A model generated the notes under the pieces. The model was given only the letters and a program-made list of their open reading frames with translations, was not told where the DNA came from and searched no databases. Both the position numbers and the translations under genes were made by a program. Source: a virus. Taken from it: a DNA stretch of 29,344 nt. Numbering within the stretch: the stretch's first letter is position 1; every line of letters begins with the position of its first letter. The stretch lies in IMG/VR virus record IMGVR_UViG_3300003323_001383; one strand, 5' to 3'. Positions 574 through 24,401 of the stretch are shown here, piece by piece.

Positions 574-984
574 GTGGTCAAGTCGCTAGTGGACGAGACG
601 GAGAGGTTCCTGGACGTCATGGGGTCCTCCGGGGTGTTCGTCCTCGCCAGGATCCCCTGCCCCGACGGCGACCCCGTCGAGGTCAGGCTCATCCGGCGAA
701 AGGACGGGTCGGGGTTCGCCATGACGGTCAAGAGGGGCGAGGCGGGCCTCCTCTCGGACTACTGGCCCGCGTACGAGCACGGCTCCTGGTTCGTCAGCGA
801 CCTGACGGACAAGGACGGGAGGGTGACGACGATCCGGGGGCTCAGCCCCGAGCGTGTCGCCCAGTACGTCCACGAGGACGCGAAGAAGGCGGGGGTGGAG
901 GTCGACCGCCTAGCCCTCGCCGAGGCCATCTCCGACGAGATGATGCTCCGAATGTCGGCCGTCGCCGACGTCCTCCTGAGCTAG
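574..984 (+). CDS. hypothetical protein (136 aa, GTG start)
   Basis: ORF immediately downstream of the tRNA pair; no recognisable motif. Confidence 0.45.
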   Translation: MVKSLVDETERFLDVMGSSGVFVLARIPCPDGDPVEVRLIRRKDGSGFAMTVKRGEAGLLSDYWPAYEHGSWFVSDLTDKDGRVTTIRGLSPERVAQYVHEDAKKAGVEVDRLALAEAISDEMMLRMSAVADVLLS

Positions 985-1682
985 CACTGGTTCCAGCTCA
1001 TCCCGTGGAGGAACCCGTGCCACCCGTCGACCGCGATGGAGCCGGCGCCGGCCGCGCAGGTGTGGCCACCCTTCCCGACGTGCAGGGTCCCGTCCTCCGG
1101 GCTCCCGGAGATGACCCAGCACCGGTGGGTCTTCTCCTCCCTCATGGTGCAGTTGGACGCCCGTCCGCAGACGTCCCAGTCCACGCCGTTCGGGGTCACG
1201 CCGCGGAGGTGCCTCCCGTCGCAGTTGTCCCAGGCCCAGCAGTGGCCCGGCTCGTGCGAGTCTGACCAGTAGACGTCGCCGGGCTCCGGGCGCCCCGAGG
1301 GCGTGTCGAAGAGCTTCGACGAGGAGACCTGGCGGTTCACTATCTCCCCGGACTGGCCGACCTCCGAGGGGGTCGAGGAGGGAGGGACGGGCGCCCCGCA
1401 ATGGTCGCACTTCGTCGGCCATGCCTCTTCGGGGAAGTCGCCCTCCTCCCCGAAGGACTCCGGGACGGCCTCGGGGAACAGGTAGTCTCGGATGACGGCA
1501 GTGGCGTTGTGGCCGCCGGAGTGGCCCCGCCCGTAGGCGTTCGGGCAGGTGTTCTGGTAGTCGTACCTCGGGTGCCCCTCCGGGCACTGGTCGCACGGAG
1601 CGACGGAGCTGACGATGGCCCGGTCCCAGTAGACGCGGAGCTCGGAGCGCACGCCGACCCTTCGGATTAGCCTGGCCTTCAT
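981..1682 (-). CDS. hypothetical Cys/His/Trp-rich protein (~233 aa from the MKARLIRR start)
   Basis: minus-strand ORF inside 981..1799; many C/H/W residues (CDQCPEGH, CDHCG, HCWAWDNC); function not recognisable, the start is uncertain. Confidence 0.4.
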   Translation of the reverse strand: MKARLIRRVGVRSELRVYWDRAIVSSVAPCDQCPEGHPRYDYQNTCPNAYGRGHSGGHNATAVIRDYLFPEAVPESFGEEGDFPEEAWPTKCDHCGAPVPPSSTPSEVGQSGEIVNRQVSSSKLFDTPSGRPEPGDVYWSDSHEPGHCWAWDNCDGRHLRGVTPNGVDWDVCGRASNCTMREEKTHRCWVISGSPEDGTLHVGKGGHTCAAGAGSIAVDGWHGFLHGMSWNQC

Positions 1683-1720: not shown

Positions 1721-1956
1721 GACCCCGTAGCCTAGAGGAAAGGCACGGCCAAAAACGGAAGCCGCACTCGAAAGAGGGGCCGCTGGAGGGGGCGAGCACA
1801 AGACCGCACGGCGTCGCCGGGGCGGCCCTCTACTCGCCCTGACCTGGACCGAGGTTGCGGATGCACCGAATGGCACGGAGCTCCCGGGTCGCTAGGGAAG
1901 CGCGTTTCCTACATGGTCCTTTGCGGTCGACGCGGGTTCGAGTCCCGCCGGGGTCG
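1721..1956 (+). ncRNA. composite tRNA-like element: canonical tRNA 5' acceptor and D arm, an expanded anticodon region, a ~150-nt structured insertion, then a T arm and matching 3' acceptor
   Basis: 5' gaccccg-ta-gcct-agaggaa-aggc matches the 5' halves of other tRNAs here; the 3' end gcggg-ttcgagt-cccgc-cggggtc pairs 7/7 with the 5' acceptor; cggcc...ggccg could close a 29-nt anticodon loop; the insert has internal helices (gggcgag/ctcgccc). Confidence 0.4.
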
Positions 1957-1962
1957 CAGTCC

Positions 1963-1991
1963 CTCCATCGCGCGCTGGCCGCGCGGTGGAG
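1963..1991 (+). promoter_or_regulatory. 12-bp stem / 5-nt loop hairpin (ctccatcgcgcg-ctggc-cgcgcggtggag), followed by a locally AT-rich stretch
   Basis: inverted repeat with one mismatch, read directly from the sequence; no U-tract immediately after it, so its terminator role is uncertain. Confidence 0.3.
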
Positions 1992-2083
1992 GGAGTAGTA
2001 CTCGAAATAGGTCACGATCTCGTTGATCCTCACATAATTTTTAGTATCGGAAGTGCCCGAGTGGTCGGTCACATTTTTGTCAC

Positions 2084-2759: not shown

Positions 2760-2821
2760 AGGTCGCGCCCAGCGAAGGGCGGTCACACAAGCAAATGGAG
2801 GTTCGAGTCCTCCCGTCCCCA
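2760..2821 (+). pseudogene. orphan tRNA 3' half (insert-end motif, T arm, acceptor) with no adjacent 5' half
   Basis: gcccagcgaagggc hairpin, then gtcacacaagcaaatggaggttcgagtcctcc-cgtcccc-a, which aligns with the insert-end and T-arm segment of the interrupted tRNA at 11554-11682; the only upstream complement, ggggacg, is at 2526. Confidence 0.4.
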
Positions 2822-2843
2822 CGAGCCCGCGAGGGCCACCCAC

Positions 2844-2906
2844 GGGGATGTAGCCGAAATGGAATAGGCAACGATATTGAAAATCGTCAACATATCCCGA
2901 TCCCCA
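2844..2906 (+). pseudogene. AT-rich tRNA-Ser(TGA)-like fragment lacking a recognisable T arm
   Basis: ggggatg-ta-gcc-gaaatggaata-ggc-a-acgat-atTGAaa-atcgt, then caacatatccc and gatcccc-a; local GC far below the window average. Confidence 0.3.
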
Positions 2907-2927: not shown

Positions 2928-3497
2928 TTAGAGGACGAAGTCCTCCGCCAGGGCCTCCCGCAGGCGCGAGATGGTCCGGGCGTGTATCTGCGAGATGCGG
3001 GGCTCGGACACGCCGAGCTCGGCCGCTATGGAGCGATAGTCCACGCCGTGGACGTGGTGGGAGACGAAGATGTGGCGCTCGCGCCACGGGAGGAGGTCGA
3101 CGAGTTCCCAGACCTTCGACAGGGCGAGGGCCGCCGCGGTCCTTGCCTCGACGTCGTCGCCCGACATTGCGTCCTCGAGCGACCTGTGCCCGGAGTCGAC
3201 GAGGACGTGGACCGCCCTGTCCGGGTCGCCCTTGGCCCTCATGCGGTGGTGCCTCGGCATCCAGTCCTTCGTCCGCAGGTCGTCCTTTATGGCGCCGCGG
3301 ATCCTTATCCTCGCGTAGGCCCCGAAGTTCTCGCAGTCGGGGTGGAGGCGCGCCGCGTCCCAGAGGCCGGACATCGCGGCCGCGTGGAGGTCGTCGTACA
3401 TGATGTGCGCCGGAAGGCGCCGCTTGAACCCGAGCGCGATGCTGCGGGCGAGGTGTGCGTGGTCCTTCATGAGGATCGAGACGCGATACTCGTTCAC
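2928..3497 (-). CDS. RNA polymerase sigma factor, FliA/WhiG (sigma-28) family
   Basis: region-2-like RLPAHIMYDDLHAAAMSGLWDAARLHP...YARIRIRGAIKDDLRTKDWMPR parallels the E. coli FliA region RLPASVDVDDL...ASWRIRGAMLDELRSRDWVPR; C-terminal region-4 HTH DYRSIAAELGVSEPRISQIHARTISRLRE. Confidence 0.85.
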   Translation of the reverse strand: MNEYRVSILMKDHAHLARSIALGFKRRLPAHIMYDDLHAAAMSGLWDAARLHPDCENFGAYARIRIRGAIKDDLRTKDWMPRHHRMRAKGDPDRAVHVLVDSGHRSLEDAMSGDDVEARTAAALALSKVWELVDLLPWRERHIFVSHHVHGVDYRSIAAELGVSEPRISQIHARTISRLREALAEDFVL

Positions 3498-4705: not shown

Positions 4706-6730
4706 ATGAACAACGAGAGCATGGGGGCGGCCGAGACCATCGTCCAGTCCCTTCTGTCCCACGCGGACCACATGTACCACAACCGTCCCGGCGTCGTCGT
4801 CGCGGACGCCCGCTTCAAGGTCGGGGTCCGTTGGGAGTACGTGACGCACCGCGAGAAGTGCCGGACCCACGAGGACGACCCGGTGAGGCCGGAGAAGGAC
4901 GCCGAGGGCAAGAAGACCGGCCGCCTGCTCTGCTCCAAGTGCCAGTCTGACGTCCGGGGGAACGGCCACAGGATCGTCTACCGGAAGGTCAAGGTCGGCA
5001 AGAAGGAGGAGGAGCAGAAGGTGGGCTACCTCGGCCCCGACGGGAAGGACGTCCTCGGCCCGAACGGGCAGAAGGTCGCCGAGTACCGCGAGGCCGGCGT
5101 CTTCCCCGAGATCGCCGTCTGGATGTACGAGCAGGTCGCGAAGGTCTGGGAGCTCGACAACGAGTTCGCCGCCCGCTGGGCGTCGCACGCGTTCGGCGAG
5201 GACCACAAGGACCGGGCCGTGATCATGGCGGCCTTCATGCTCGTCCAGTCCCGCAAGGGGGACCCCGTCCGCGAGGACGGCAAGGTCCTGTTCCACGACG
5301 ACGACTTCCGGGACGTCGGCGAGGCCATGGTCCTGCACCTGAAGGACAAGAGGAAGAAGGACGAGCGCGAGATCTCCCCGCGCATGCTCCTGCGCATTCA
5401 CGAGGTCCTGTCGCTCGACGGGATCGCGGCGGTCAACCGGCGCCTCGGCTTCGGGGTCTCCGCCCGCAGGCCGCCCTTGGGCCGCTGGGCGAAGGCCGTC
5501 GAGAAGTGGCTCCTCTACCGGGAGGAGAACCCGAAGATGCTGGAGGGCCTGGTCAAGTCCGGGCAGAAGTCGACCGTCGTCGAGCTCTGCAAGCGCGTCG
5601 GGTACAAGCCCGCCTCGCCCAGGTTCTTCGAGATCCTCGGCGTCCGGCAGAAGCAGGCGCCGGACGGCAGGCGCACGGTCGCCATCGGCCTCGACATCAG
5701 GTCCGGCGGCTCGTGGGAGGGCATGAGCGAGGAGCAGATCTGCGAGGCGATCGTCAGGGACAAGGTCGGCTACAAGCGGGTGGCCGGCATGGTCCCCAGG
5801 TCCGTCGGCGTCACCCGCGCCGTCATGGCCGCGACGATCGAGGCCGGGGGCGTCTCCGACAAGGAGATGATCATCCTCATGCCGACCCTCGAGGAGCTCG
5901 GGCTCCTGGACGTCCCCTCCGTCAAGGAGAGGATCGAGCGCGCCGTCAAGGGCGCGGACGACATGCGCGCCGCGAACGTCGCGGCCCGGATGCGCTCCCA
6001 GGAGGCGAAGGAGAAGCTCCAGGAGGCCTCGGACAACGCCCTGAAGAAGGCGGTCGAGGAGGTCATGAAGGACATGCGCGCGTACATCCTAGTCGACAAG
6101 TCGGGCTCCATGGAGGGCGCGATCGAGGCGGCGAAGGGATGCGTGACGAAGTTCCTCCAGGGCTTTCCGCCCGAGCGGGTCCACGTGGCGTACTTCGACG
6201 CCGTCGGCCGCGAGGTCAGGATCCCGCACCCGTCCGCGGCCGGGGTCGCCAAGGCCTTCTCCGGCATCACGGCCGGAGGCGGGACCAACTACGGCCAGGG
6301 CGTCCTCGCCCTGAGGGACCACGTCCCGAAGGACGAGGAGGACGTCGTCATGATCTTCATCGGCGACGAGGGCCACGGGATCGGCCGGCTCATCAGGCTC
6401 GGCGAGGGCGACCACCCGTCGTTCGCCGCCGACGTCCAGAGGTCCGGCCTGCGGCCGATGGCGTTCGGGCTCATCCCGATCGTCTCGAAGAACCCGCAGT
6501 TCCCGCGCGGCAACTCCGTCCGGAAGACGGCCGCCGAGCTCGGGATCCCCTGCTTCGAGATCGGCGAGGAGACCTTCGCCGACCCCTACGCCATCCCGAG
6601 GACGATCAGGAACATCATCGCGGCGACCCCGGTCACCGCGAGGGCGACGGCCGCCCCGGTCCGGCGGCAGACCCTGGTCGAGGTCATCATGAAGACCGAG
6701 CTCCTCCGGAAGCCCGCTTGGGCAGCCTGA
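4706..6730 (+). CDS. Ro60/TROVE-like protein with a C-terminal von Willebrand A (vWA) domain and an N-terminal Cys-rich extension
   Basis: AAGGAG RBS 10 nt upstream of the ATG; the C-terminal YILVDKSGSMEG (MIDAS DxSxS)...ITAGGGTNYG...VVMIFIGDEGHG...IPCFEIGEETF...IRNII parallels the human Ro60 vWA region VDVSASM...AGGTDCS...VFIVFTDNETF...CGFDTGALDVIRNF; the N-terminal 130 aa contain CSKCQSD...GHR. Confidence 0.65.
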   Translation: MNNESMGAAETIVQSLLSHADHMYHNRPGVVVADARFKVGVRWEYVTHREKCRTHEDDPVRPEKDAEGKKTGRLLCSKCQSDVRGNGHRIVYRKVKVGKKEEEQKVGYLGPDGKDVLGPNGQKVAEYREAGVFPEIAVWMYEQVAKVWELDNEFAARWASHAFGEDHKDRAVIMAAFMLVQSRKGDPVREDGKVLFHDDDFRDVGEAMVLHLKDKRKKDEREISPRMLLRIHEVLSLDGIAAVNRRLGFGVSARRPPLGRWAKAVEKWLLYREENPKMLEGLVKSGQKSTVVELCKRVGYKPASPRFFEILGVRQKQAPDGRRTVAIGLDIRSGGSWEGMSEEQICEAIVRDKVGYKRVAGMVPRSVGVTRAVMAATIEAGGVSDKEMIILMPTLEELGLLDVPSVKERIERAVKGADDMRAANVAARMRSQEAKEKLQEASDNALKKAVEEVMKDMRAYILVDKSGSMEGAIEAAKGCVTKFLQGFPPERVHVAYFDAVGREVRIPHPSAAGVAKAFSGITAGGGTNYGQGVLALRDHVPKDEEDVVMIFIGDEGHGIGRLIRLGEGDHPSFAADVQRSGLRPMAFGLIPIVSKNPQFPRGNSVRKTAAELGIPCFEIGEETFADPYAIPRTIRNIIAATPVTARATAAPVRRQTLVEVIMKTELLRKPAWAA

Positions 6731-6738
6731 GGCGCACG

Positions 6739-7095
6739 ATGTCGAGGAGGATGGGGCGGGAGCCCCTCCCCTCCCCGGTGTCGCACCGGTCCTACCTCGC
6801 CAGCCCGGCGTTCGGGCTGGCAAGGTCGGGCCGCAGCATCTTCTCGGTCCCGAAGAGGGGGCCGCTCTTCTACGCCGACTTCGAGGCGACGGAGCTCCGG
6901 ATGATGGCCTCCCTGGGCCTCTTCAGGTTCCCGTGCCCCGCCTGCGGAGACCCGCTCCTGGCGAGCGCCCGCTCCGGACGGAGGTCGATGGGGTACCCGC
7001 ACGACCTTGCCGGAAGCCAGGACGACATCCTCGTCCAGCACGCCCTGAAGAAGGGGGACCCCGAGCACGGCGTCCTCCTCGTCATGACGGCGTAG
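6739..7095 (+). CDS. hypothetical small protein with a CPACG motif
   Basis: ATG 9 nt after the previous stop; the same frame extends far upstream as a GC artefact, so support is weak. Confidence 0.3.
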   Translation: MSRRMGREPLPSPVSHRSYLASPAFGLARSGRSIFSVPKRGPLFYADFEATELRMMASLGLFRFPCPACGDPLLASARSGRRSMGYPHDLAGSQDDILVQHALKKGDPEHGVLLVMTA

Positions 7096-7661: not shown

Positions 7662-8648
7662 ATGTCCTGGCGGGACCTGCTCCAGAAGGAGGACGAGAGC
7701 CTCGTCCTCCCGTGGACCGGAGGGAGGACCGTCCTCTCGCCGGGCCCCGCGTACCAGATGCAGGGTCCGAAGCCCAGGGAGCACGGGTGGAAGGCTTTCC
7801 AGATAAAGGGAAGGAACGCCTTCCACGTCGGCCCGTCGGACCCGGAGGTCTCCGTCCTCGGAAGGCGCGTCACCGGGTACCTCGTCGGGGACCGCGTGGT
7901 CCCCGACGGGACACGGGTGGCCTCCGGCTACGATGGGATAATCTACTCCTCGGAGGCGGTCCACCTCCTCGAGCCCGGGATCGCCAGGTTCGCCAGGGTG
8001 TCCGCCGGCCGCGTCGCCGACGGGGCGCCCCTGGTCTTCGTCTCGGAGGAGATGCCGCTCGGGCCCGAGCAGGACGTCCTCGCCGCGTTCCAGGACCGGG
8101 CCCCGAACCTGGACGGGATCCGCGACGTCGAGCCAGCGCTCTACGCGGCCTTCGTCCTGGAGGTCGGCCAGAGGGCGTCGGCGGAGAAGGCCAGGGCCGA
8201 GCTCGAGGCGCAGCGCGCCCTGGAGGCCGCCCAGGCGGCCGAGAGGGAGCGGATCGGGAGGCTCGTGGAGCAGCTCTCGGACGCGCGCGGGAGGCGCGAG
8301 ATGGCGGCCTACGACTTCGCCCAGGCCGCGTCGGCGGCGCTGACCCTGGCGGAGGCTGAGTACCTGGACCACCGGGCGTCCGCCAACCGAGGGGAGATGG
8401 TCGTTACCTTCCGCCTCGAGGGGCGGAGGTTCGAGTGCGTGTGCGACGCCAGGACACTCCGGATCGTCGACTCGGGCATCTGCCTCGTCGACCACAGGAC
8501 CGGGGTCCGCGGCGACGACCGTTTCACCCTCGAGTCGCTCCCCGGCGTCATCCGCCTGGCGATGAGGACCGGCAGGCTTCACGTCTTCCGCCGGGTCGAC
8601 GACGACTACGGCGAGCGGGAGCACGATGACGACGACTACGACGACTAG
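7662..8648 (+). CDS. hypothetical protein (328 aa) with an acidic DDDYDD C-terminus
   Basis: ATG 4 nt after the HU stop; coiled-coil-like Ala/Glu/Arg-rich middle. Confidence 0.6.
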   Translation: MSWRDLLQKEDESLVLPWTGGRTVLSPGPAYQMQGPKPREHGWKAFQIKGRNAFHVGPSDPEVSVLGRRVTGYLVGDRVVPDGTRVASGYDGIIYSSEAVHLLEPGIARFARVSAGRVADGAPLVFVSEEMPLGPEQDVLAAFQDRAPNLDGIRDVEPALYAAFVLEVGQRASAEKARAELEAQRALEAAQAAERERIGRLVEQLSDARGRREMAAYDFAQAASAALTLAEAEYLDHRASANRGEMVVTFRLEGRRFECVCDARTLRIVDSGICLVDHRTGVRGDDRFTLESLPGVIRLAMRTGRLHVFRRVDDDYGEREHDDDDYDD

Positions 8649-10893: not shown

Positions 10894-11466
10894 ATGAAGA
10901 AGGTCACGATCGTCGGCGCCGGGGCCCTGGGCTCTCACCTCGTCATGCTGCTTCGGAACCACGCCGACATGAAGGTCGTGGACTTCGACCGCATCGAGAC
11001 GAAGAACACGATGTCCCAGCTCCACGGCAAGAGCACGGTCGGGAAGAACAAGGCAAAGTCTCTCCAGCAGACGATGCTCTTCCTGTTCGGCACGAGGCTC
11101 GAGGCGGTCCCGCACCGGCTCGAGCCGTCGAACGTCAAGGAGCTCCTCGAGGGCTCGGACCTCGTGGTCGACTGCGTCGACGACGGGCCGACCCGGAGGG
11201 TCATCCAGGCGTTCTGCGTGGAGAGAGGGATTGCGTGCCTGCACGGGGCGCTCTCGGCCGCCGGGGCAGACTTCGGCCAGGCCCGGTGGACCGAGGAGTT
11301 CACAGCCCACGACCGGACGGAGGGCGCGCCGACCTGCGAGGACGGCGAGCATCTTCCGTACATCGCGAAGGCCTCGGCGCAGCTCGCCATCGCGGCGCAG
11401 GACTTCCTGCGCGACGGCTCCAAGCGCGGGTTCCTCGTGCAGCGGGGCCCGGTCAAGGAGATCTGA
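10894..11466 (+). CDS. minimal E1-like adenylyltransferase (ThiF/MoeB/UBA superfamily)
   Basis: VTIVGAGALGSHLVMLL...VVDFDRIETKNTMSQL nucleotide-binding motif, then DLVVDCVDDGPTRRVIQAFCVERGIACLHGALSAAGADFGQ; only 190 aa. Confidence 0.8.
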   Translation: MKKVTIVGAGALGSHLVMLLRNHADMKVVDFDRIETKNTMSQLHGKSTVGKNKAKSLQQTMLFLFGTRLEAVPHRLEPSNVKELLEGSDLVVDCVDDGPTRRVIQAFCVERGIACLHGALSAAGADFGQARWTEEFTAHDRTEGAPTCEDGEHLPYIAKASAQLAIAAQDFLRDGSKRGFLVQRGPVKEI

Positions 11467-11553
11467 GGATTGACGGCGGTACGTCCGCCGGTGTAAAGTA
11501 ACGACGTCAGCAGCGAGACGCCAAGCGTCTCCGGGACCAGAAGGTCCCTCTCG

Positions 11554-11682
11554 GGGTTCAAGGAGACTGGGTCTCCACCAATCGGTAAAATTGGCAAATC
11601 ACCCAGAGTCGGCAATCGGGCCAGCGATGGCCCTCCCGAACGGCTCTCACAAGCAAGCTAGGTTCGATTCCTAGGGACCCCA
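11554..11682 (+). tRNA. tRNA-Tyr(GTA)-like gene interrupted by a ~58-nt insertion between the anticodon stem and the T stem
   Basis: 5' ggggttc-aa-ggag-actgggt-ctcc-a-ccaat-cgGTAaa-attgg; 63 nt of insert (11595-11657) ending ggctctcacaagcaagc; then ctagg-ttcgatt-cctag-ggacccc-a, which pairs with the 5' acceptor (one G-U). Confidence 0.55.
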
Positions 11683-11717: not shown

Positions 11718-11851
11718 GCCCCGTAAGAGGTCTGGGTACCTCATTTCCCTTCCACGGAAACACACAACACCCCAGGCTAGCCAATCGACCCCTCGCGGGG
11801 TCACCAGGCACAGTCTCACATGCATGGATGGTTCGATTCCATCACGGGGCT
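11718..11851 (+). tRNA. tRNA-Gly(TCC) interrupted by a ~61-nt insertion in the variable region, with an encoded CCA
   Basis: 5' gccccgt-aa-gagg-tctgggta-cctc-a-tttcc-ctTCCac-ggaaa; 66 nt (11761-11826) containing caatcgaccc and gtctcacatgc; then gatgg-ttcgatt-ccatc-acggggc-t-cca; acceptor 7/7 complementary across 134 nt. Confidence 0.7.
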
Positions 11852-11880: not shown

Positions 11881-11952
11881 ATGCAATTAGCTCAAAGGTA
11901 GAGCGTCGGCCTACTAAGCCGGATGTTGCGGCCTCGAAAACCGCATTGCAAT
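11881..11952 (+). pseudogene. degenerate, AT-rich tRNA-like sequence (anticodon ACT, non-canonical 9-nt T loop, encoded t-cca)
   Basis: atgcaat-ta-gctc-aaaggta-gagc-g-tcggc-ctACTaa-gccgg-atgtt-gcgg-cctcgaaaa-ccgc-attgcaa-t-cca; the first acceptor pair is mismatched. Confidence 0.35.
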
Positions 11953-11991: not shown

Positions 11992-12119
11992 GCCCGAAGT
12001 CGGGGTCTGGGACCCCACCAGTTTTTGGAACTGACAAACCCAGCGTCGCGCATCGACCCCCGTGAGAGGGTCAGCAAAGCGGCTCTCACAAGCTTCCGGT
12101 TCGAATCCGGATTCGGGCG
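11992..12119 (+). tRNA. tRNA-Gln(TTG) interrupted by a ~55-nt insertion in the variable region
   Basis: 5' gcccgaa-gt-(c)gggg-tctggga-cccc-a-ccagt-ttTTGga-actga; 60 nt (12035-12094) containing catcgaccccc and ggctctcacaagc; then tccgg-ttcgaat-ccgga-ttcgggc-g; acceptor 7/7. Confidence 0.55.
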
Positions 12120-17583: not shown

Positions 17584-17847
17584 GTGCGGTGCCTCATCGG
17601 ACGATGCCGGAGGAAGGTGTCCCGTTGGTGGAGGATCGACTCCGCCGACGGGACCTTTCTCACCGCGTCCTGCGGCGTCTGCGGCCCCATCGTCAGCACG
17701 AGCGTCCTCGACAGCTCGGGGGTGACGGCGGTGAGGGAGATAGAGTACGGGGACTTCCTGGCCGCCGAGGTCATGGAGGCGGAGCCCGTCCTCGTGGGGA
17801 GCATCCTGGTCGGGAACGGCCGGATCATGTACGGGCCCCAGCCGTAG
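17584..17847 (+). CDS. hypothetical small protein (87 aa) with an internal AEVMEA motif
   Basis: ORF only; competes with an overlapping frame (17589..18053). Confidence 0.3.
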   Translation: MRCLIGRCRRKVSRWWRIDSADGTFLTASCGVCGPIVSTSVLDSSGVTAVREIEYGDFLAAEVMEAEPVLVGSILVGNGRIMYGPQP

Positions 17848-21840: not shown

Positions 21841-22073
21841 TCCGGGTCGAACTCGAGATAGGAGTAGACCGCCACGGCCCCGTCGTCGTGCTTGACGAAG
21901 TACAGGTCGCCCCCGGCGCCGCCGACCGCATCGAGGACCTGGCCGGAGGCCCCGTTCTTCCGGGCGGCGACGAGGTCGGCCCCGCCGATCATGCCCATCG
22001 TGGCGTTCTTCTCGAAGCAGTCCACGGTCCGCACGCGGACGCCCCTCTTCAAGATTTGGCTCGGCTGCTCCAT
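21837..22073 (-). CDS. hypothetical small protein (78 aa)
   Basis: minus-strand ORF, Gly/Ala-rich; coupled to the previous gene. Confidence 0.4.
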   Translation of the reverse strand: MEQPSQILKRGVRVRTVDCFEKNATMGMIGGADLVAARKNGASGQVLDAVGGAGGDLYFVKHDDGAVAVYSYLEFDPE

Positions 22074-22149
22074 GCCGAGGAATACAACGACGTTAGCCCG
22101 ACTTTCGCGGAGGGAAAGTCAAGACAGTAACATAGACAGGCAGGAACCG

Positions 22150-22668
22150 ATGAGAACCCTTCTTCTGACCCCGTGGCTCTTCCCGCACAAGGTCCTCTCC
22201 TGGGAGGACGCCGTGACCCTCGTCTACCGGGGGAAGGTCGACGTCCTGGTCGAGTACGGCCAGGAGGTCTCCTCCCCGTCCGTGACGTGGAAGGTCCCGG
22301 CGGTGCTGCGCCTGCGCAAGCCCATCGGGCACATGCGGAGGGGCGTGAAGTTCTCCCGACTGAACGTCTTCACCCGGGACAAGTTCCGGTGCCAGTACTG
22401 CGGGGAGAAGTTCTGCTTCGACGACCTGACCTACGACCACGTCATCCCGGCCCGCCTCGGCGGCGAGAAGGACTGGGAGAACATCGTGACGGCCTGCAGC
22501 CCCTGCAACAACAGGAAGGGCGGCAGGACCTGCGACCAGGCCAGGATGTGGCCGCTGAACTGGCCGAAGAAGCCAGAGTCCGTCCCGGCGACCGGCCCCC
22601 TGATCAAGAGGGACGGTATCCCCGAGGAGTGGCAGGGCTTCTGCGACGGCCTCATACACATCACGTGA
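22150..22668 (+). CDS. HNH endonuclease
   Basis: CQYCGEKF...LTYDHVIPARLGG...NIVTACSPCNNRKG: HNH core with flanking Cys pairs. Confidence 0.8.
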   Translation: MRTLLLTPWLFPHKVLSWEDAVTLVYRGKVDVLVEYGQEVSSPSVTWKVPAVLRLRKPIGHMRRGVKFSRLNVFTRDKFRCQYCGEKFCFDDLTYDHVIPARLGGEKDWENIVTACSPCNNRKGGRTCDQARMWPLNWPKKPESVPATGPLIKRDGIPEEWQGFCDGLIHIT

Positions 22669-23999: not shown

Positions 24000-24401
24000 T
24001 CAGTCGACGCGGACCTTCTTCGCGGCCTGAGGCTGGGCCGCCGGAATGACGATGGTCATATAGCCGTCCTCGACCTTCGCCGATATGGCGTCGAGGTCCG
24101 CCTTCTCGGAGATGGCGATCTTCACCGAGCTCTTCTGCCCGTCGAGCTTCCTCGTCCACTCGACCTGGAGGGACCTCGAGCTCACGGACACGTCGACGTC
24201 GCCCTTCTTGCACCCGGGCACCTCGAGCTCGACGGTGACGACCGGGAGGCCGTCGCGCTTCTCCTTCGTCACCTTGTGGGTCGAGTGCCCGAGGCGGACC
24301 GACGTCCCCTCGAGGGCGTCGTCGAAGATGGACTCGACGGTGTCCATGGCCTTGTCGAGGGCGTTCGAGATGCGGCGCACGTGCACGAAGAGGTCGTCCA
24401 T
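24000..24401 (-). CDS. small heat-shock protein (Hsp20 / alpha-crystallin domain)
   Basis: ...VELEVPGCKKGDVDVSVSSRSLQVEWTRK...AKVEDGYMTIVIP is a typical alpha-crystallin beta-sandwich signature. Confidence 0.8.
   Translation of the reverse strand: MDDLFVHVRRISNALDKAMDTVESIFDDALEGTSVRLGHSTHKVTKEKRDGLPVVTVELEVPGCKKGDVDVSVSSRSLQVEWTRKLDGQKSSVKIAISEKADLDAISAKVEDGYMTIVIPAAQPQAAKKVRVD

What the first reader, a model, noticed from the sequence alone, without database searches (positions are those of the whole stretch)
1721..1956. 236-nt composite tRNA-like locus: perfect tRNA 5' half and T-arm/acceptor 3' half separated by ~180 nt of structured sequence
The 5' acceptor gaccccg, with a canonical D arm gcct-agaggaa-aggc, pairs 7/7 with cggggtc placed just after a perfect T arm 230 nt downstream. 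The anticodon stem cggcc can only close with ggccg 29 nt away. The remainder contains self-complementary blocks (gggcgag/ctcgccc, ccgc...gcgg). It is either a tRNA with two large insertions, a Y-RNA-like tRNA mimic, or a rearranged tRNA. It lacks the CTCACAAGC insert motif of the 11.5-kb elements.
Basis: seen in the sequence. Interest (0 to 1): 0.6.

Follow-up and report, generated by a model that had tools for sequence, protein, structure and literature searches.

The report
Phage tRNA-shaped noncoding RNA (Y-RNA-like)
The 236-nt locus is a real, precisely bounded gene for a tRNA-shaped noncoding RNA whose anticodon loop and variable region are replaced by a conserved structured module; it belongs to a widespread family in phages and bacteria that sits in tRNA arrays and next to RNA-repair genes, so it is most likely a protein-binding tRNA mimic, not a decoding tRNA.

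Summary
In detail: window 1721-1956 (+) has a 7/7 acceptor helix, a D arm and a T arm enclosing about 185 nt. It is not chance. A covariance model built from five short relatives scores exactly 1721-1956 at 73.4 bits (E 1e-14); ordinary tRNAs in the window reach at most 34.5 bits. The closest ortholog (L215) is conserved only between these two ends.

I found about 79 distinct relatives, 22 viral and 57 bacterial, of 152-297 nt. They share a tRNA body, an enlarged "anticodon" loop containing AAAACG, and a variable-region module GGUUGCGGAUGCAC-hairpin-GGGAAGCGCGUUUCC closed by a covarying helix. No Rfam 15 family matches.

Best reading: a Y-RNA-like tRNA mimic, probably the never-validated "band-7-associated tRNA" predicted in 2016, acting as a cofactor or scaffold in RNA repair or quality control. 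It is not an intron-containing tRNA, a tmRNA or a pseudogene. Function is inferred, not shown.

The parts
1721..1727 (+). Acceptor stem, 5' strand (GACCCCG)
   Evidence: Pairs 7/7 with 1949-1955. R1 match starts here. Pair 3 is C:G in the window and U:A in L215. All 7 pairs show double changes across 68 members.
1730..1744 (+). D arm: stem GCCT/AGGC, 7-nt loop AGAGGAA with GG
   Evidence: Sequence; MFE fold. Helix 2 is 93.9% paired, and all 4 pairs show double changes.
1746..1764 (+). Arm at the anticodon position: stem CGGC/GCCG closing the 11-nt loop CAAAAACGGAA. It carries the family-wide AAAACG motif and has no U33 or 7-nt anticodon loop.
   Evidence: Coordinates. The AAAAC(G/U) loop is present in nearly all members. 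Matched stems are longer than stems with permuted partners (4.46 vs 3.75, 0/200). Helix 3 is 75.5% paired.
1767..1776 (+). Small hairpin CTC-GAAA-GAG (GNRA loop), lineage-specific
   Evidence: MFE fold. L215 has a different hairpin, CTCCC-TAAACA-GGAGG, at the same place.
1777..1845 (+). Lineage-specific extension domain: helix GGGCGAG/CTCGCCC enclosing an internal loop, CCGC/GGCGG and an apical hairpin
   Evidence: MFE fold. It is shared with L215 and partly with L029 and L209, absent from the 152-167-nt short members, and different in most bacterial members.
1846..1850 (+). Helix P-x, 5' strand (GGACC), closing the conserved module
   Evidence: Pairs with 1915-1919. Helix 4 has 6 pairs, all with double changes, and is 91.3% paired. 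Partner-permutation test: 5.74 vs 4.61 +/- 0.11, 0/200.
1853..1867 (+). Conserved hairpin GGTTGC-GGAT-GCACC. The 14-mer GGTTGCGGATGCAC was used as the search anchor.
   Evidence: Identical in the window and L029, which were found without using it. It is invariant in all members, so no covariation test is possible (helix 5).
1868..1894 (+). CGAA-containing internal loop plus variable hairpin (GAATGGCAC...GGGTCGCTA)
   Evidence: CGAA directly follows GCAC in 32 of 79 members, including the window. Helix 6 is 89.8% paired, and all 5 pairs show double changes. A CGAA motif marks Ro60-binding Y RNAs (PMC4201824, PMC12135203).
1895..1909 (+). Conserved segment GGGAAGCGCGTTTCC. It is either a local hairpin, or its CGTTT pairs with the AAACG of loop 1750-1760 as a pseudoknot.
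   Evidence: Near-invariant. The pseudoknot is suggested by two joint changes: L205 AACUG/CGGUU and L109 ACUG/CAGU. This is an inference and not statistically tested.
1915..1919 (+). Helix P-x, 3' strand (GGTCC)
   Evidence: As for 1846-1850.
1932..1948 (+). T arm GCGGG-TTCGAGT-CCCGC
   Evidence: Helix 7 is 99.4% paired.
1949..1956 (+). Acceptor stem 3' strand CGGGGTC plus discriminator G1956. CCA is not encoded; CAG follows.
   Evidence: CCA is encoded in 21 of 79 members.
1960..1994 (+). 15-bp GC-rich stem-loop just downstream, with no U tract: a possible processing or termination element
   Evidence: Read from the sequence. It was not called by the terminator scan and is not conserved in L215. 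Its link to the RNA is an inference.
4706..6730 (+). 674-aa VWA-domain protein, the candidate (unproven) Ro60-like partner. It lies on the same strand, 2.75 kb downstream.

Best explanation
Window 1721-1956 (+) encodes a noncoding tRNA mimic.

Anatomy. It keeps the parts of a tRNA that processing enzymes read: a 7-bp acceptor stem, a D arm with GG, and a T arm. So it is probably cut out of phage transcripts by RNase P and a 3' nuclease like the neighbouring tRNAs, and given a CCA end. That step is inferred. The decoding parts are replaced. The anticodon loop is an 11-nt loop with the conserved AAAACG. The variable region carries a module of about 70 nt, plus here a 79-nt lineage-specific extension (hairpin 1767-1776 and domain 1777-1845). 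The module is made of the invariant hairpin GGUUGC-GGAU-GCACC, a CGAA-containing internal loop with a variable hairpin, and GGGAAGCGCGUUUCC. A covarying helix closes it all.

Family. The same RNA family occurs in many large phages and in bacterial tRNA arrays next to RtcB, Band-7/SPFH, HNH or Ro60/Rsr genes.

Proposed function (inferred). It most likely works as Y RNAs do. The module binds a protein partner: in this phage perhaps the Ro60-like VWA protein 2.75 kb downstream, elsewhere Rsr or Band-7 with RtcB. The tRNA-shaped body then recruits or mimics tRNA substrates, helping the phage keep its tRNA pool repaired or checked when host nucleases attack.

Status. Membership in the family is shown. 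The partner and the function are inferred.
For: Real and bounded:
- R1 scores 1721-1956 at 73.4 bits, E 1.3e-14.
- The L215 ortholog gives E 6.9e-43, and conservation stops at both ends.

Structure:
- On 68 members, 93.0% of cells are paired against 69.8% in shuffles and 40-47% in slid controls.
- 30 of 37 pairs have double changes.
- Partner-permutation tests support the anticodon-position stem and helix P-x.

Not a decoder:
- There is no ARAGORN or Rfam tRNA call.
- The loop is 9-11 nt with AAAACG in all members.

Context of the family:
- TROVE gene 0.3 kb downstream in L117, E 2.5e-21, with a YrlA-like hit upstream at 35.8 bits.
- RtcB (E 5e-125), Band-7 (E 2e-28) and HNH in bacterial loci.
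- Members sit in slots of arrays of 17-34 tRNAs.

Literature:
- A 'band 7-associated tRNA' next to RtcB and Band-7, occasionally next to Rsr, was predicted and never validated (bioRxiv 10.1101/312249).
- Y RNAs lie within 4 kb of Ro60 on the same strand (PMC4201824).
- A phage Ro60 binds CGAA-motif Y-like RNAs (PMC12135203).
- Jumbo phages carry TROVE with a tRNA-like partner for RNA repair (PMC7824862).

Window partner: Foldseek ranks Ro60/TROVE structures first for the 674-aa protein.
Against: - No expression, processing or binding data exist for any member.
- No RtcB, Band-7 or sequence-detectable TROVE gene lies in this 29-kb window.
- Three relatives (L216-L218) have that protein but no copy of the RNA within 8 kb.
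- About 35 Myxococcota loci show neither tRNAs nor repair genes nearby.
- The CGAA motif is present in only 32 of 79 members.
- The Rfam YrlA model does not match the locus.
- Identity with the published b7a-tRNA could not be checked, because the primary paper is not held.
- The alignment used for covariation was fitted to the model.
Confidence: 0.6

Rival explanations
1. An intron-containing tRNA gene, for example tRNA-Asp, which is missing from the array. The roughly 165 internal nucleotides would be removed by self-splicing or by an endonuclease plus RtcB ligase to give a decoding tRNA.
For: - The T arm, the acceptor stem and G73 resemble actinobacterial tRNA-Asp (from my own knowledge of those sequences).
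- ARAGORN finds no Asp, Asn, Lys, Tyr or Trp tRNA in the window.
- The family is linked to RtcB, a tRNA-splicing ligase.
Against: - No 7-nt loop with U33 and a purine at 37 can be assembled from the exon-like ends (read).
- Group I intron and all other Rfam models are silent even at E <= 10.
- The 'insert' is the most conserved part across phyla, while acceptor stems and discriminators vary freely (A 40, G 23, U 16). That is the opposite of what one isoacceptor with a mobile intron would show.
- The insert occupies both the anticodon loop and the variable region.
Confidence: 0.06
2. A decoy or inhibitor. The tRNA-shaped RNA would soak up a host tRNA-directed nuclease, a modification enzyme or a defence sensor (for example an RtcR/CARF-type sensor of tRNA halves), rather than act as a cofactor for repair.
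For: - It has a tRNA-like body without decoding capacity.
- It sits in phage tRNA arrays, which are thought to counter host tRNA depletion (PMC7824862).
- Many members have no repair gene nearby.
Against: - The same RNA is a chromosomal gene in many bacteria (Myxococcota, Deinococcus, Planctomycetota), where an anti-host decoy makes little sense.
- The conserved module is far larger than a decoy needs.
- The recurrent neighbours are repair or quality-control proteins.
Confidence: 0.15
3. A reduced or divergent tmRNA that rescues stalled ribosomes.
For: - Phages with big tRNA arrays often carry a tmRNA; L001 does.
- The T arm resembles the tmRNA T arm (16.3 bits over 18 nt).
- CCA is encoded in 21 of 79 members.
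Against: - ARAGORN finds no tmRNA here.
- There is no G3:U70 pair; pair 3 is C:G.
- The RNA has a full D arm and an anticodon-position arm, which tmRNA lacks.
- No conserved tag reading frame appears when the window is compared with L029.
- The Rfam tmRNA models fail.
Confidence: 0.03
4. A decayed or rearranged tRNA gene with no function, or a chance juxtaposition of two tRNA halves.
For: - Folding energy is no better than shuffled sequence (z 0.32).
- No promoter or terminator was found by simple scans.
Against: - About 79 distinct homologs occur across phages and several bacterial phyla, with the internal module nearly invariant and compensatory changes in five helices.
- Conservation against L215 stops exactly at both ends.
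Confidence: 0.01

Closest known systems
[quoted passage not shown]
   Same: - A tRNA-like noncoding RNA.
- Family members lie next to RtcB and Band-7/SPFH genes and, in other genomes, next to Rsr/TROVE, exactly the pattern described.
- Never validated experimentally.
   Different: - The published sequences could not be compared, because the paper is not held.
- It is described as 'strongly resembling an authentic tRNA', whereas these RNAs are 152-297 nt with a large module.
- This window contains neither RtcB nor Band-7.
- Many members, including this one, are in phages.
Bacterial and phage Y RNAs with a tRNA-like domain (YrlA, Rfam RF02553; YrlB of M. smegmatis; Yrl1/Yrl2 of Thermus phage phiLo)
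   Same: - A tRNA-mimicking D arm, T arm and 7-bp acceptor stem.
- A CGAA motif in an internal loop.
- Encoded on the same strand within 4 kb of a Ro60-type protein (L117: 0.3 kb; window: 2.75 kb from a Ro60-like candidate).
- In L117 the order YrlA-like RNA, this RNA, rsr mirrors yrlA-yrlB-rsr of M. smegmatis.
   Different: - YrlA is circularly permuted relative to tRNA: its ends lie in the Ro-binding stem and its acceptor is closed by a loop. This family has tRNA topology, with open acceptor ends and a closed module.
- RF02553 does not match.
- The full GNCGAAN0-1G motif is not met; the window has ACCGAAUG.
- Most members are not next to a TROVE gene.
Class II tRNAs and tRNA-Sec (long variable arm)
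   Same: The extra structure emerges between the anticodon-position arm and the T arm, as a long variable arm does. The Rfam tRNA model accepts the short member in L117 with a 95-nt insertion (38.9 bits).
   Different: - The variable-region structure is 80-170 nt and multi-helix, against 13-25 nt.
- There is no anticodon loop.
- The sequence of the insert, not of the body, is conserved.
tmRNA
   Same: A tRNA-like acceptor and T-arm domain enclosing a large structured insert; found in phages with tRNA arrays.
   Different: - It has D and anticodon-position arms.
- It has no G3:U70 pair and no tag reading frame.
- It is not detected by ARAGORN or Rfam.
Bacterial tRNA genes with group I introns
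   Same: A tRNA gene interrupted by a structured sequence of about 200 nt.
   Different: - No group I core and no Rfam hit.
- The interruption is not confined to the anticodon loop.
- No splice-compatible anticodon loop exists.

Membership tests
tRNA-like RNA family defined here (model R1; conserved module GGUUGCGGAUGCAC...GGGAAGCGCGUUUCC) | Full-length match to a covariance model built from other members | tested here: met
   73.4 bits, E 1.3e-14, model positions 1-152, at 1721-1956. Ordinary tRNAs in the window score at most 34.5 bits.
tRNA-like RNA family defined here (model R1; conserved module GGUUGCGGAUGCAC...GGGAAGCGCGUUUCC) | tRNA-type acceptor, D and T helices plus module-closing helices supported by covariation | tested here: met
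   93.0% paired against 69.8% in shuffles; 30 of 37 pairs with double changes. Window pairs are listed.
b7a-tRNA (Burroughs & Aravind 2016) | tRNA-like ncRNA encoded next to RtcB and a Band-7/SPFH protein (occasionally Rsr) | tested here: inconclusive
   Met for the family: Band-7 in 10, RtcB in 6 and TROVE in 3 related loci. Not met in this window: none of the three was found by tblastn or Pfam. Only 29 kb of a 95.6-kb contig were available.
b7a-tRNA (Burroughs & Aravind 2016) | Sequence or structure match to the published b7a-tRNA alignment | not testable with these tools
   The primary paper and its supplements are not held. Only a second-hand description is available.
YrlA (Rfam RF02553) | Match to the Rfam model at or above the gathering score of 69 bits | tested here: not met
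   No YrlA match at 1600-2080 even at E <= 10.
YrlA (Rfam RF02553) | Permuted topology: 5' and 3' ends in the Ro-binding stem, with the order T arm, closed acceptor stem-loop, D arm | tested here: not met
   The order here is acceptor 5' strand, D arm..., T arm, acceptor 3' strand, with open acceptor ends.
Y RNA in the broad sense (Ro60 partner) | Encoded within about 4 kb of a Ro60/TROVE gene on the same strand | tested here: inconclusive
Y RNA in the broad sense (Ro60 partner) | GNCGAAN0-1G / CGAA motif in an internal loop | tested here: inconclusive
   The window has CACCGAAUGG (1864-1873). CGAA-N-G is present, but the leading G is an A. CGAA is present in 32 of 79 members.
Y RNA in the broad sense (Ro60 partner) | Physical binding to Ro60/Rsr | not testable with these tools
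   Needs immunoprecipitation or EMSA.
Canonical decoding tRNA (with or without intron) | 7-nt anticodon loop with U33 closed by a 5-bp stem, and detection by tRNA finders | tested here: not met
   Not called by ARAGORN or by Rfam tRNA. The loop is an 11-nt CAAAAACGGAA.
Group I intron | Match to the conserved catalytic core (Rfam Intron_gpI) | tested here: not met
   No match at E <= 10.
tmRNA | G3:U70 alanine identity pair, tag reading frame, no D stem, detection by ARAGORN or Rfam | tested here: not met
   Pair 3 is C:G, and a D arm is present. ARAGORN finds none. Rfam matches only the 18-nt T arm at 16.3 bits.

The most novel reading that the evidence does not exclude
The family may be a distinct, undescribed class of structured RNA: a tRNA scaffold carrying a conserved multi-helix module that docks onto its own anticodon-position loop through an AAAC/GUUU pseudoknot. 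It would be distributed from huge phages to Myxococcota chromosomes. It would act as the RNA subunit of RNA-repair or quality-control particles built on divergent Ro60-like VWA proteins, which sequence profiles do not recognise as TROVE. That would greatly widen the known range of Ro/Y-RNA-type systems in phages.
Probability: 0.3. Interest if true: 0.75.

Novelty: new member of a known kind. Interest (0 to 1): 0.55.

Why it matters
tRNA mimics that partner with Ro60, Band-7 and RtcB are thought to organise RNA repair and quality control, but the Band-7-associated tRNA-like RNA has never been validated and has no Rfam model.

This locus gives a precisely bounded phage example. With it come about 79 relatives and a covariation-supported secondary structure. 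The genomic pattern is also clear: these RNAs occupy slots inside mobile tRNA arrays in phages and bacteria.

If the nearby, widely conserved VWA protein of large phages really is a Ro60 relative, many phages carry a hidden Ro/Y-RNA-like particle. That would bear on how phages defend their tRNA supply against host nucleases.

In practice, genome annotation pipelines currently miss these genes, or miscall them as tRNAs with odd inserts.

Tried and rejected
- Rfam at gathering and at E <= 10 on the locus gave only T-arm fragments (tmRNA, mascRNA). There was no tRNA, group I intron, YrlA or ribozyme match.
- ARAGORN found no tRNA or tmRNA here.
- BLAST of the locus against 50,697 phage records found no match. 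A 30-mer from the 5' half had no exact match in viral contigs.
- One viral scan was wasted on a wrong reading frame of the neighbouring gene.
- Synteny through the neighbouring gene 981-1682(-) did not help. Relatives L081, L083 and L084 have the sigma factor gene directly adjacent and no copy of the RNA.
- I tried by hand to assemble a normal anticodon arm for Asp, Lys or Trp from the exon-like ends. All attempts violate U33, purine-37 or variable-loop length.
- Folding energy as evidence: z = 0.32, uninformative in 67% GC sequence.
- A global MAFFT plus RNAalifold run on 81 members recovered only the acceptor, D, T and one hairpin, because the extension domains do not align. I replaced it with anchored tests and CM-based alignment.
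- TROVE by tblastn was absent from all 55 bacterial loci and from the window, so a universal Rsr link is rejected.
- Many genome-scan hits were chance matches inside a conserved enzyme gene and were filtered out.
- The simple promoter and terminator scan found nothing.

Full report
**Setting.** The window is 67% GC and looks like part of a large phage genome. ARAGORN tRNAs and Rfam 27, interspersed with small genes, a sigma factor (2928-3497, minus strand), a ThiF-like protein, an HNH endonuclease and an Hsp20. The only similar deposited phage record is Virus Rctr197k, and it matches a single gene. The source contig is 95.6 kb.

**Observation.**
- an acceptor stem, GACCCCG (1721-1727) pairing 7/7 with CGGGGTC (1949-1955), and discriminator G1956;
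- a D arm, GCCT-AGAGGAA-AGGC (1730-1744);
- a T arm, GCGGG-TTCGAGT-CCCGC (1932-1948).

The T-arm consensus at 1935-1945 is one of the few in the window that belong to no called tRNA. ARAGORN and Rfam do not call the locus. At E <= 10 Rfam returns only T-arm fragments. The minimum-free-energy fold reproduces the acceptor, the D arm, a hairpin at the anticodon position and the T arm. Its energy is no better than that of shuffles (z 0.32), so thermodynamics proves nothing here.

**Finding relatives.**
- Direct searches of phage records and of viral contigs with a 30-mer failed.
- nhmmer of the locus against loci fetched for another purpose found a homolog in a 407-kb phage contig (L029, E about 1e-9).
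- The 14-mer shared by the two, GGTTGCGGATGCAC, and the longer pattern GGTTGCGGATGCAC-N8-38-GGAAGCG then recovered many more. These came from viral contigs and from bacterial genomes.
- Chance hits inside coding sequence were filtered out.
- After curation there are 79 distinct sequences: 22 viral (152-297 nt) and 57 bacterial (202-244 nt).
- The bacterial members come from Myxococcota, Steroidobacteraceae and other Gammaproteobacteria, Burkholderiales, Planctomycetota, Deinococcus and Clostridia.
- The closest ortholog, L215 515-765, comes from a phage whose VWA protein is 80% identical. It gives E 6.9e-43.
- In the pairwise alignment, conservation begins at the first acceptor base and ends at the last, the flanks diverge, and acceptor pair 3 changes from C:G to U:A.

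**Significance and uniqueness.** A covariance model was built from five short members only (A1, R1). It matches the window at exactly 1721-1956 with the full model, at 73.4 bits and E 1.3e-14. The best ordinary tRNA in the window scores 34.5 bits, so there is one copy.

**Architecture.** All members share the following:
- a 7-bp acceptor stem;
- a D arm with GG in the loop;
- a short stem closing a 9-11-nt (sometimes longer) loop containing AAAAC(G/U), where a tRNA has its anticodon loop;
- an optional, lineage-specific extension, 1765-1845 in the window;
- a closing helix P-x (window GGACC 1846-1850 with GGTCC 1915-1919);
- the invariant hairpin GGUUGC-GGAU-GCACC (1853-1867);
- an internal loop that often contains CGAA, followed by a variable hairpin (1868-1894);
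- the near-invariant GGGAAGCGCGUUUCC (1895-1909);
- a T arm and the 3' acceptor strand.

**Covariation.** The test used the model-fitted alignment of 68 members.
- 93.0% of cells form standard pairs, against 69.8% after shuffling partners and 40-47% when partners are slid.
- 30 of 37 pairs show changes on both sides.
- Every pair of the acceptor, D, anticodon-position, P-x and variable-hairpin helices shows such changes.

An alignment-free test, pairing each 5' strand with its own or another member's 3' strand, also supports the anticodon-position stem (4.46 vs 3.75) and P-x (5.74 vs 4.61), both 0 of 200 permutations. Two caveats apply: the CM alignment leans towards the model, and the 14-mer hairpin is invariant by construction.

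**Possible pseudoknot.** A pairing between AAAC(G) of the loop and (C)GUUU of the 3' conserved segment is suggested by two joint changes, L205 AACUG/CGGUU and L109 ACUG/CAGU. It remains an inference.

**What it is not.**
- It is not a decoding tRNA. No 7-nt loop with U33 exists, and none can be assembled from the exon-like ends.
- It is not an intron-containing tRNA. The insert is the conserved part, while acceptor stems and discriminators vary (A 40, G 23, U 16), and no group I core is detected.
- It is not a tmRNA. There is no G3:U70 pair, D and anticodon-position arms are present, there is no conserved tag frame, and neither ARAGORN nor Rfam calls one.
- It is not a pseudogene, given the conservation.

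**Genomic context of the family.**
- In 17 of 26 viral and 19 of 59 bacterial loci a tRNA lies within 300 nt.
- In the bacterial loci with tRNAs, the RNA occupies one slot in arrays of 17-34 tRNAs. In L237, for example, it fills the 230-nt gap between tRNA-Lys and tRNA-Leu.
- These arrays are flanked on the same strand by RtcB RNA ligase (PF01139, E 5e-125), a Band-7/SPFH protein (E 2e-28) and an HNH endonuclease. Band-7 occurs in 10 loci, RtcB in 6 and HNH in 10.
- The window also carries a homologous HNH gene inside its array (21991-22668).
- In GC-rich phage contigs (L113, L117, L211) the RNA lies just upstream of a TROVE-domain (Ro60/Rsr) gene (E 2.5e-21).
- In L117 a partial YrlA match (35.8 bits, E 5.6e-6) lies just upstream of the RNA. 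The order YrlA-like RNA, this RNA, rsr parallels yrlA-yrlB-rsr in M. smegmatis (PMC4201824).
- About 35 Myxococcota loci show none of these neighbours, so the associations are recurrent but not universal.

**Comparison with the literature.**
- Wang et al. (bioRxiv 10.1101/312249) summarise a prediction by Burroughs and Aravind (2016). [quoted passage not shown] This RNA is occasionally found next to Rsr and has never been validated.
- The contexts found here fit that description, so the family is probably this RNA. I could not read the primary paper, so the identification stays provisional.
- Y RNAs of bacteria and phages mimic tRNA, carry a GNCGAAN0-1G/CGAA motif and lie within 4 kb of Ro60 on the same strand.
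- A Thermus phage Ro60 binds two such RNAs encoded upstream of its gene (PMC12135203).
- Jumbo phages with TROVE proteins are proposed to use them with a tRNA-like partner for RNA repair (PMC7824862).
- The present family differs from YrlA in topology. YrlA is circularly permuted, whereas this RNA has open acceptor ends like a tRNA. It also fails the Rfam YrlA model.

**Candidate partner in this window.**
- The 674-aa protein at 4706-6730 lies on the same strand, 2.75 kb downstream. It has only a VWA domain by Pfam.
- It belongs to a large, well conserved family of big-phage proteins (1889 hits).
- An AlphaFold model (pLDDT 81.6) shows a beta domain, about 320 residues of helical repeats and a VWA domain.
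- Foldseek against the PDB ranks Ro60/TROVE structures first: 9kop, 1yvp, 9nfa, 9l5y, with E 1e-8 to 4e-6 and alignments of 549-590 columns. Other hits cover only the VWA domain.
- Homologs of this protein lie 1.6 kb downstream of the RNA in L029 and 7.2 kb away in L215. Three other relatives (L216-L218) have the protein without the RNA nearby.
- The link is therefore suggestive only.

**Mechanism (commitment).** Shown: the locus is a conserved, structured, tRNA-shaped RNA gene of a widespread family embedded in tRNA arrays and recurrently linked to RNA-repair and quality-control genes. Inferred: it is released by RNase P and 3' processing like its tRNA neighbours; its conserved module binds a protein (a Ro60-like protein, or Band-7 with RtcB); and the particle helps to repair or cull damaged tRNAs or rRNAs during infection. 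I put about 0.6 on this overall reading. Family membership alone is about 0.95, and the specific Ro60-like partner about 0.35. The main rival is a decoy for host tRNA-directed enzymes (0.15).

**Verdict.** Novelty: a new, phage-borne, expanded member of a known but uncharacterised kind. Interest is moderate (0.55). The family is absent from Rfam, is much more widespread than the literature I could read indicates, and points to a possible hidden Ro60-like protein family in large phages.

Noticed in passing
window 11553-11682, 11718-11851, 11992-12119: Three complete cloverleaf tRNA-like genes downstream of a TTGACG-17-TAAAGT promoter-like site. Their anticodon loops are CGGUAAA (with G33), CUUCCAC (UCC) and UUUUGGA (UUG). 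Each carries a 55-65-nt structured insert in the variable region that ends in CUCACA(A/U)GC just before the T stem. Rfam has no match except a weak tRNA-Sec hit (23.3 bits). Orthologs occur in L215, L217 and L218, and the motif family occurs in many huge-phage contigs. Function unknown.
   Followed up: partly
window 2760-2900 (T arm about 2797-2813, CGTCCCC, 22-nt linker, GGGGATG 2846-2852, D arm, anticodon arm): A circularly permuted tRNA-like element. The order is a CACACAAGC motif, T arm, 3' acceptor strand, short linker, 5' acceptor strand, D arm, and an anticodon arm with loop AUUGAAA. It is conserved next to the sigma factor gene in L083 and L215. Similar permuted units form chains in the huge-phage locus L004. 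The topology resembles YrlA, but the Rfam YrlA score is only 15.4 bits.
   Followed up: partly
L004 about 8100-8260, L043 about 1440-1530, L057: In huge-phage contigs the motif CUCACAA also sits immediately 5' of the first base of ordinary complete tRNAs. This suggests a processing signal or the 3' end of a self-processing element.
   Followed up: no
window 4706-6730 (+): A 674-aa VWA protein conserved at 53-80% identity in very many large phage contigs. Its predicted structure is closest to Ro60/TROVE by Foldseek, yet Pfam finds no TROVE domain.
   Followed up: yes
window 11881-11952 (+): Rfam calls a tRNA here (50.4 bits) that ARAGORN misses. Its anticodon loop CUACUAA gives the unusual anticodon ACU.
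   Followed up: no
window 6959-7044 (-): This is the only tRNA ARAGORN calls on the minus strand (Gly-UCC, 86 nt). It has no Rfam support and is probably a false call.
   Followed up: no
window 10894-11466 (+) and relatives L215, L217, L218: A ThiF/E1-like protein lies directly upstream of the CUCACAAGC tRNA-like cluster. Relatives also show a faint Prok-JAB hit nearby, hinting at a ubiquitin-like conjugation module.
   Followed up: no
window 21991-22668 (+) and 24000-24401 (-): An HNH endonuclease (PF14279, E 1e-15) lies inside the tRNA array and is homologous to the HNH genes of bacterial RtcB/Band-7 tRNA arrays. An Hsp20 gene is also present.
   Followed up: partly
L237, L269, L279, L232, L298, L230 (bacterial genome contigs): Large tRNA arrays of 17-34 genes in Gammaproteobacteria, Planctomycetota and Deltaproteobacteria MAGs are flanked by RtcB, HNH and Band-7 genes. 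They look like mobile 'tRNA supply plus repair' modules that share components with this phage.
   Followed up: partly
window 17613-17657 (+): A minihelix-like acceptor plus T-arm motif (GTCCCGT...GGATCGACTCC...ACGGGAC) lies inside a high-GC3 open reading frame (17584-17847). It is probably a chance match.
   Followed up: no
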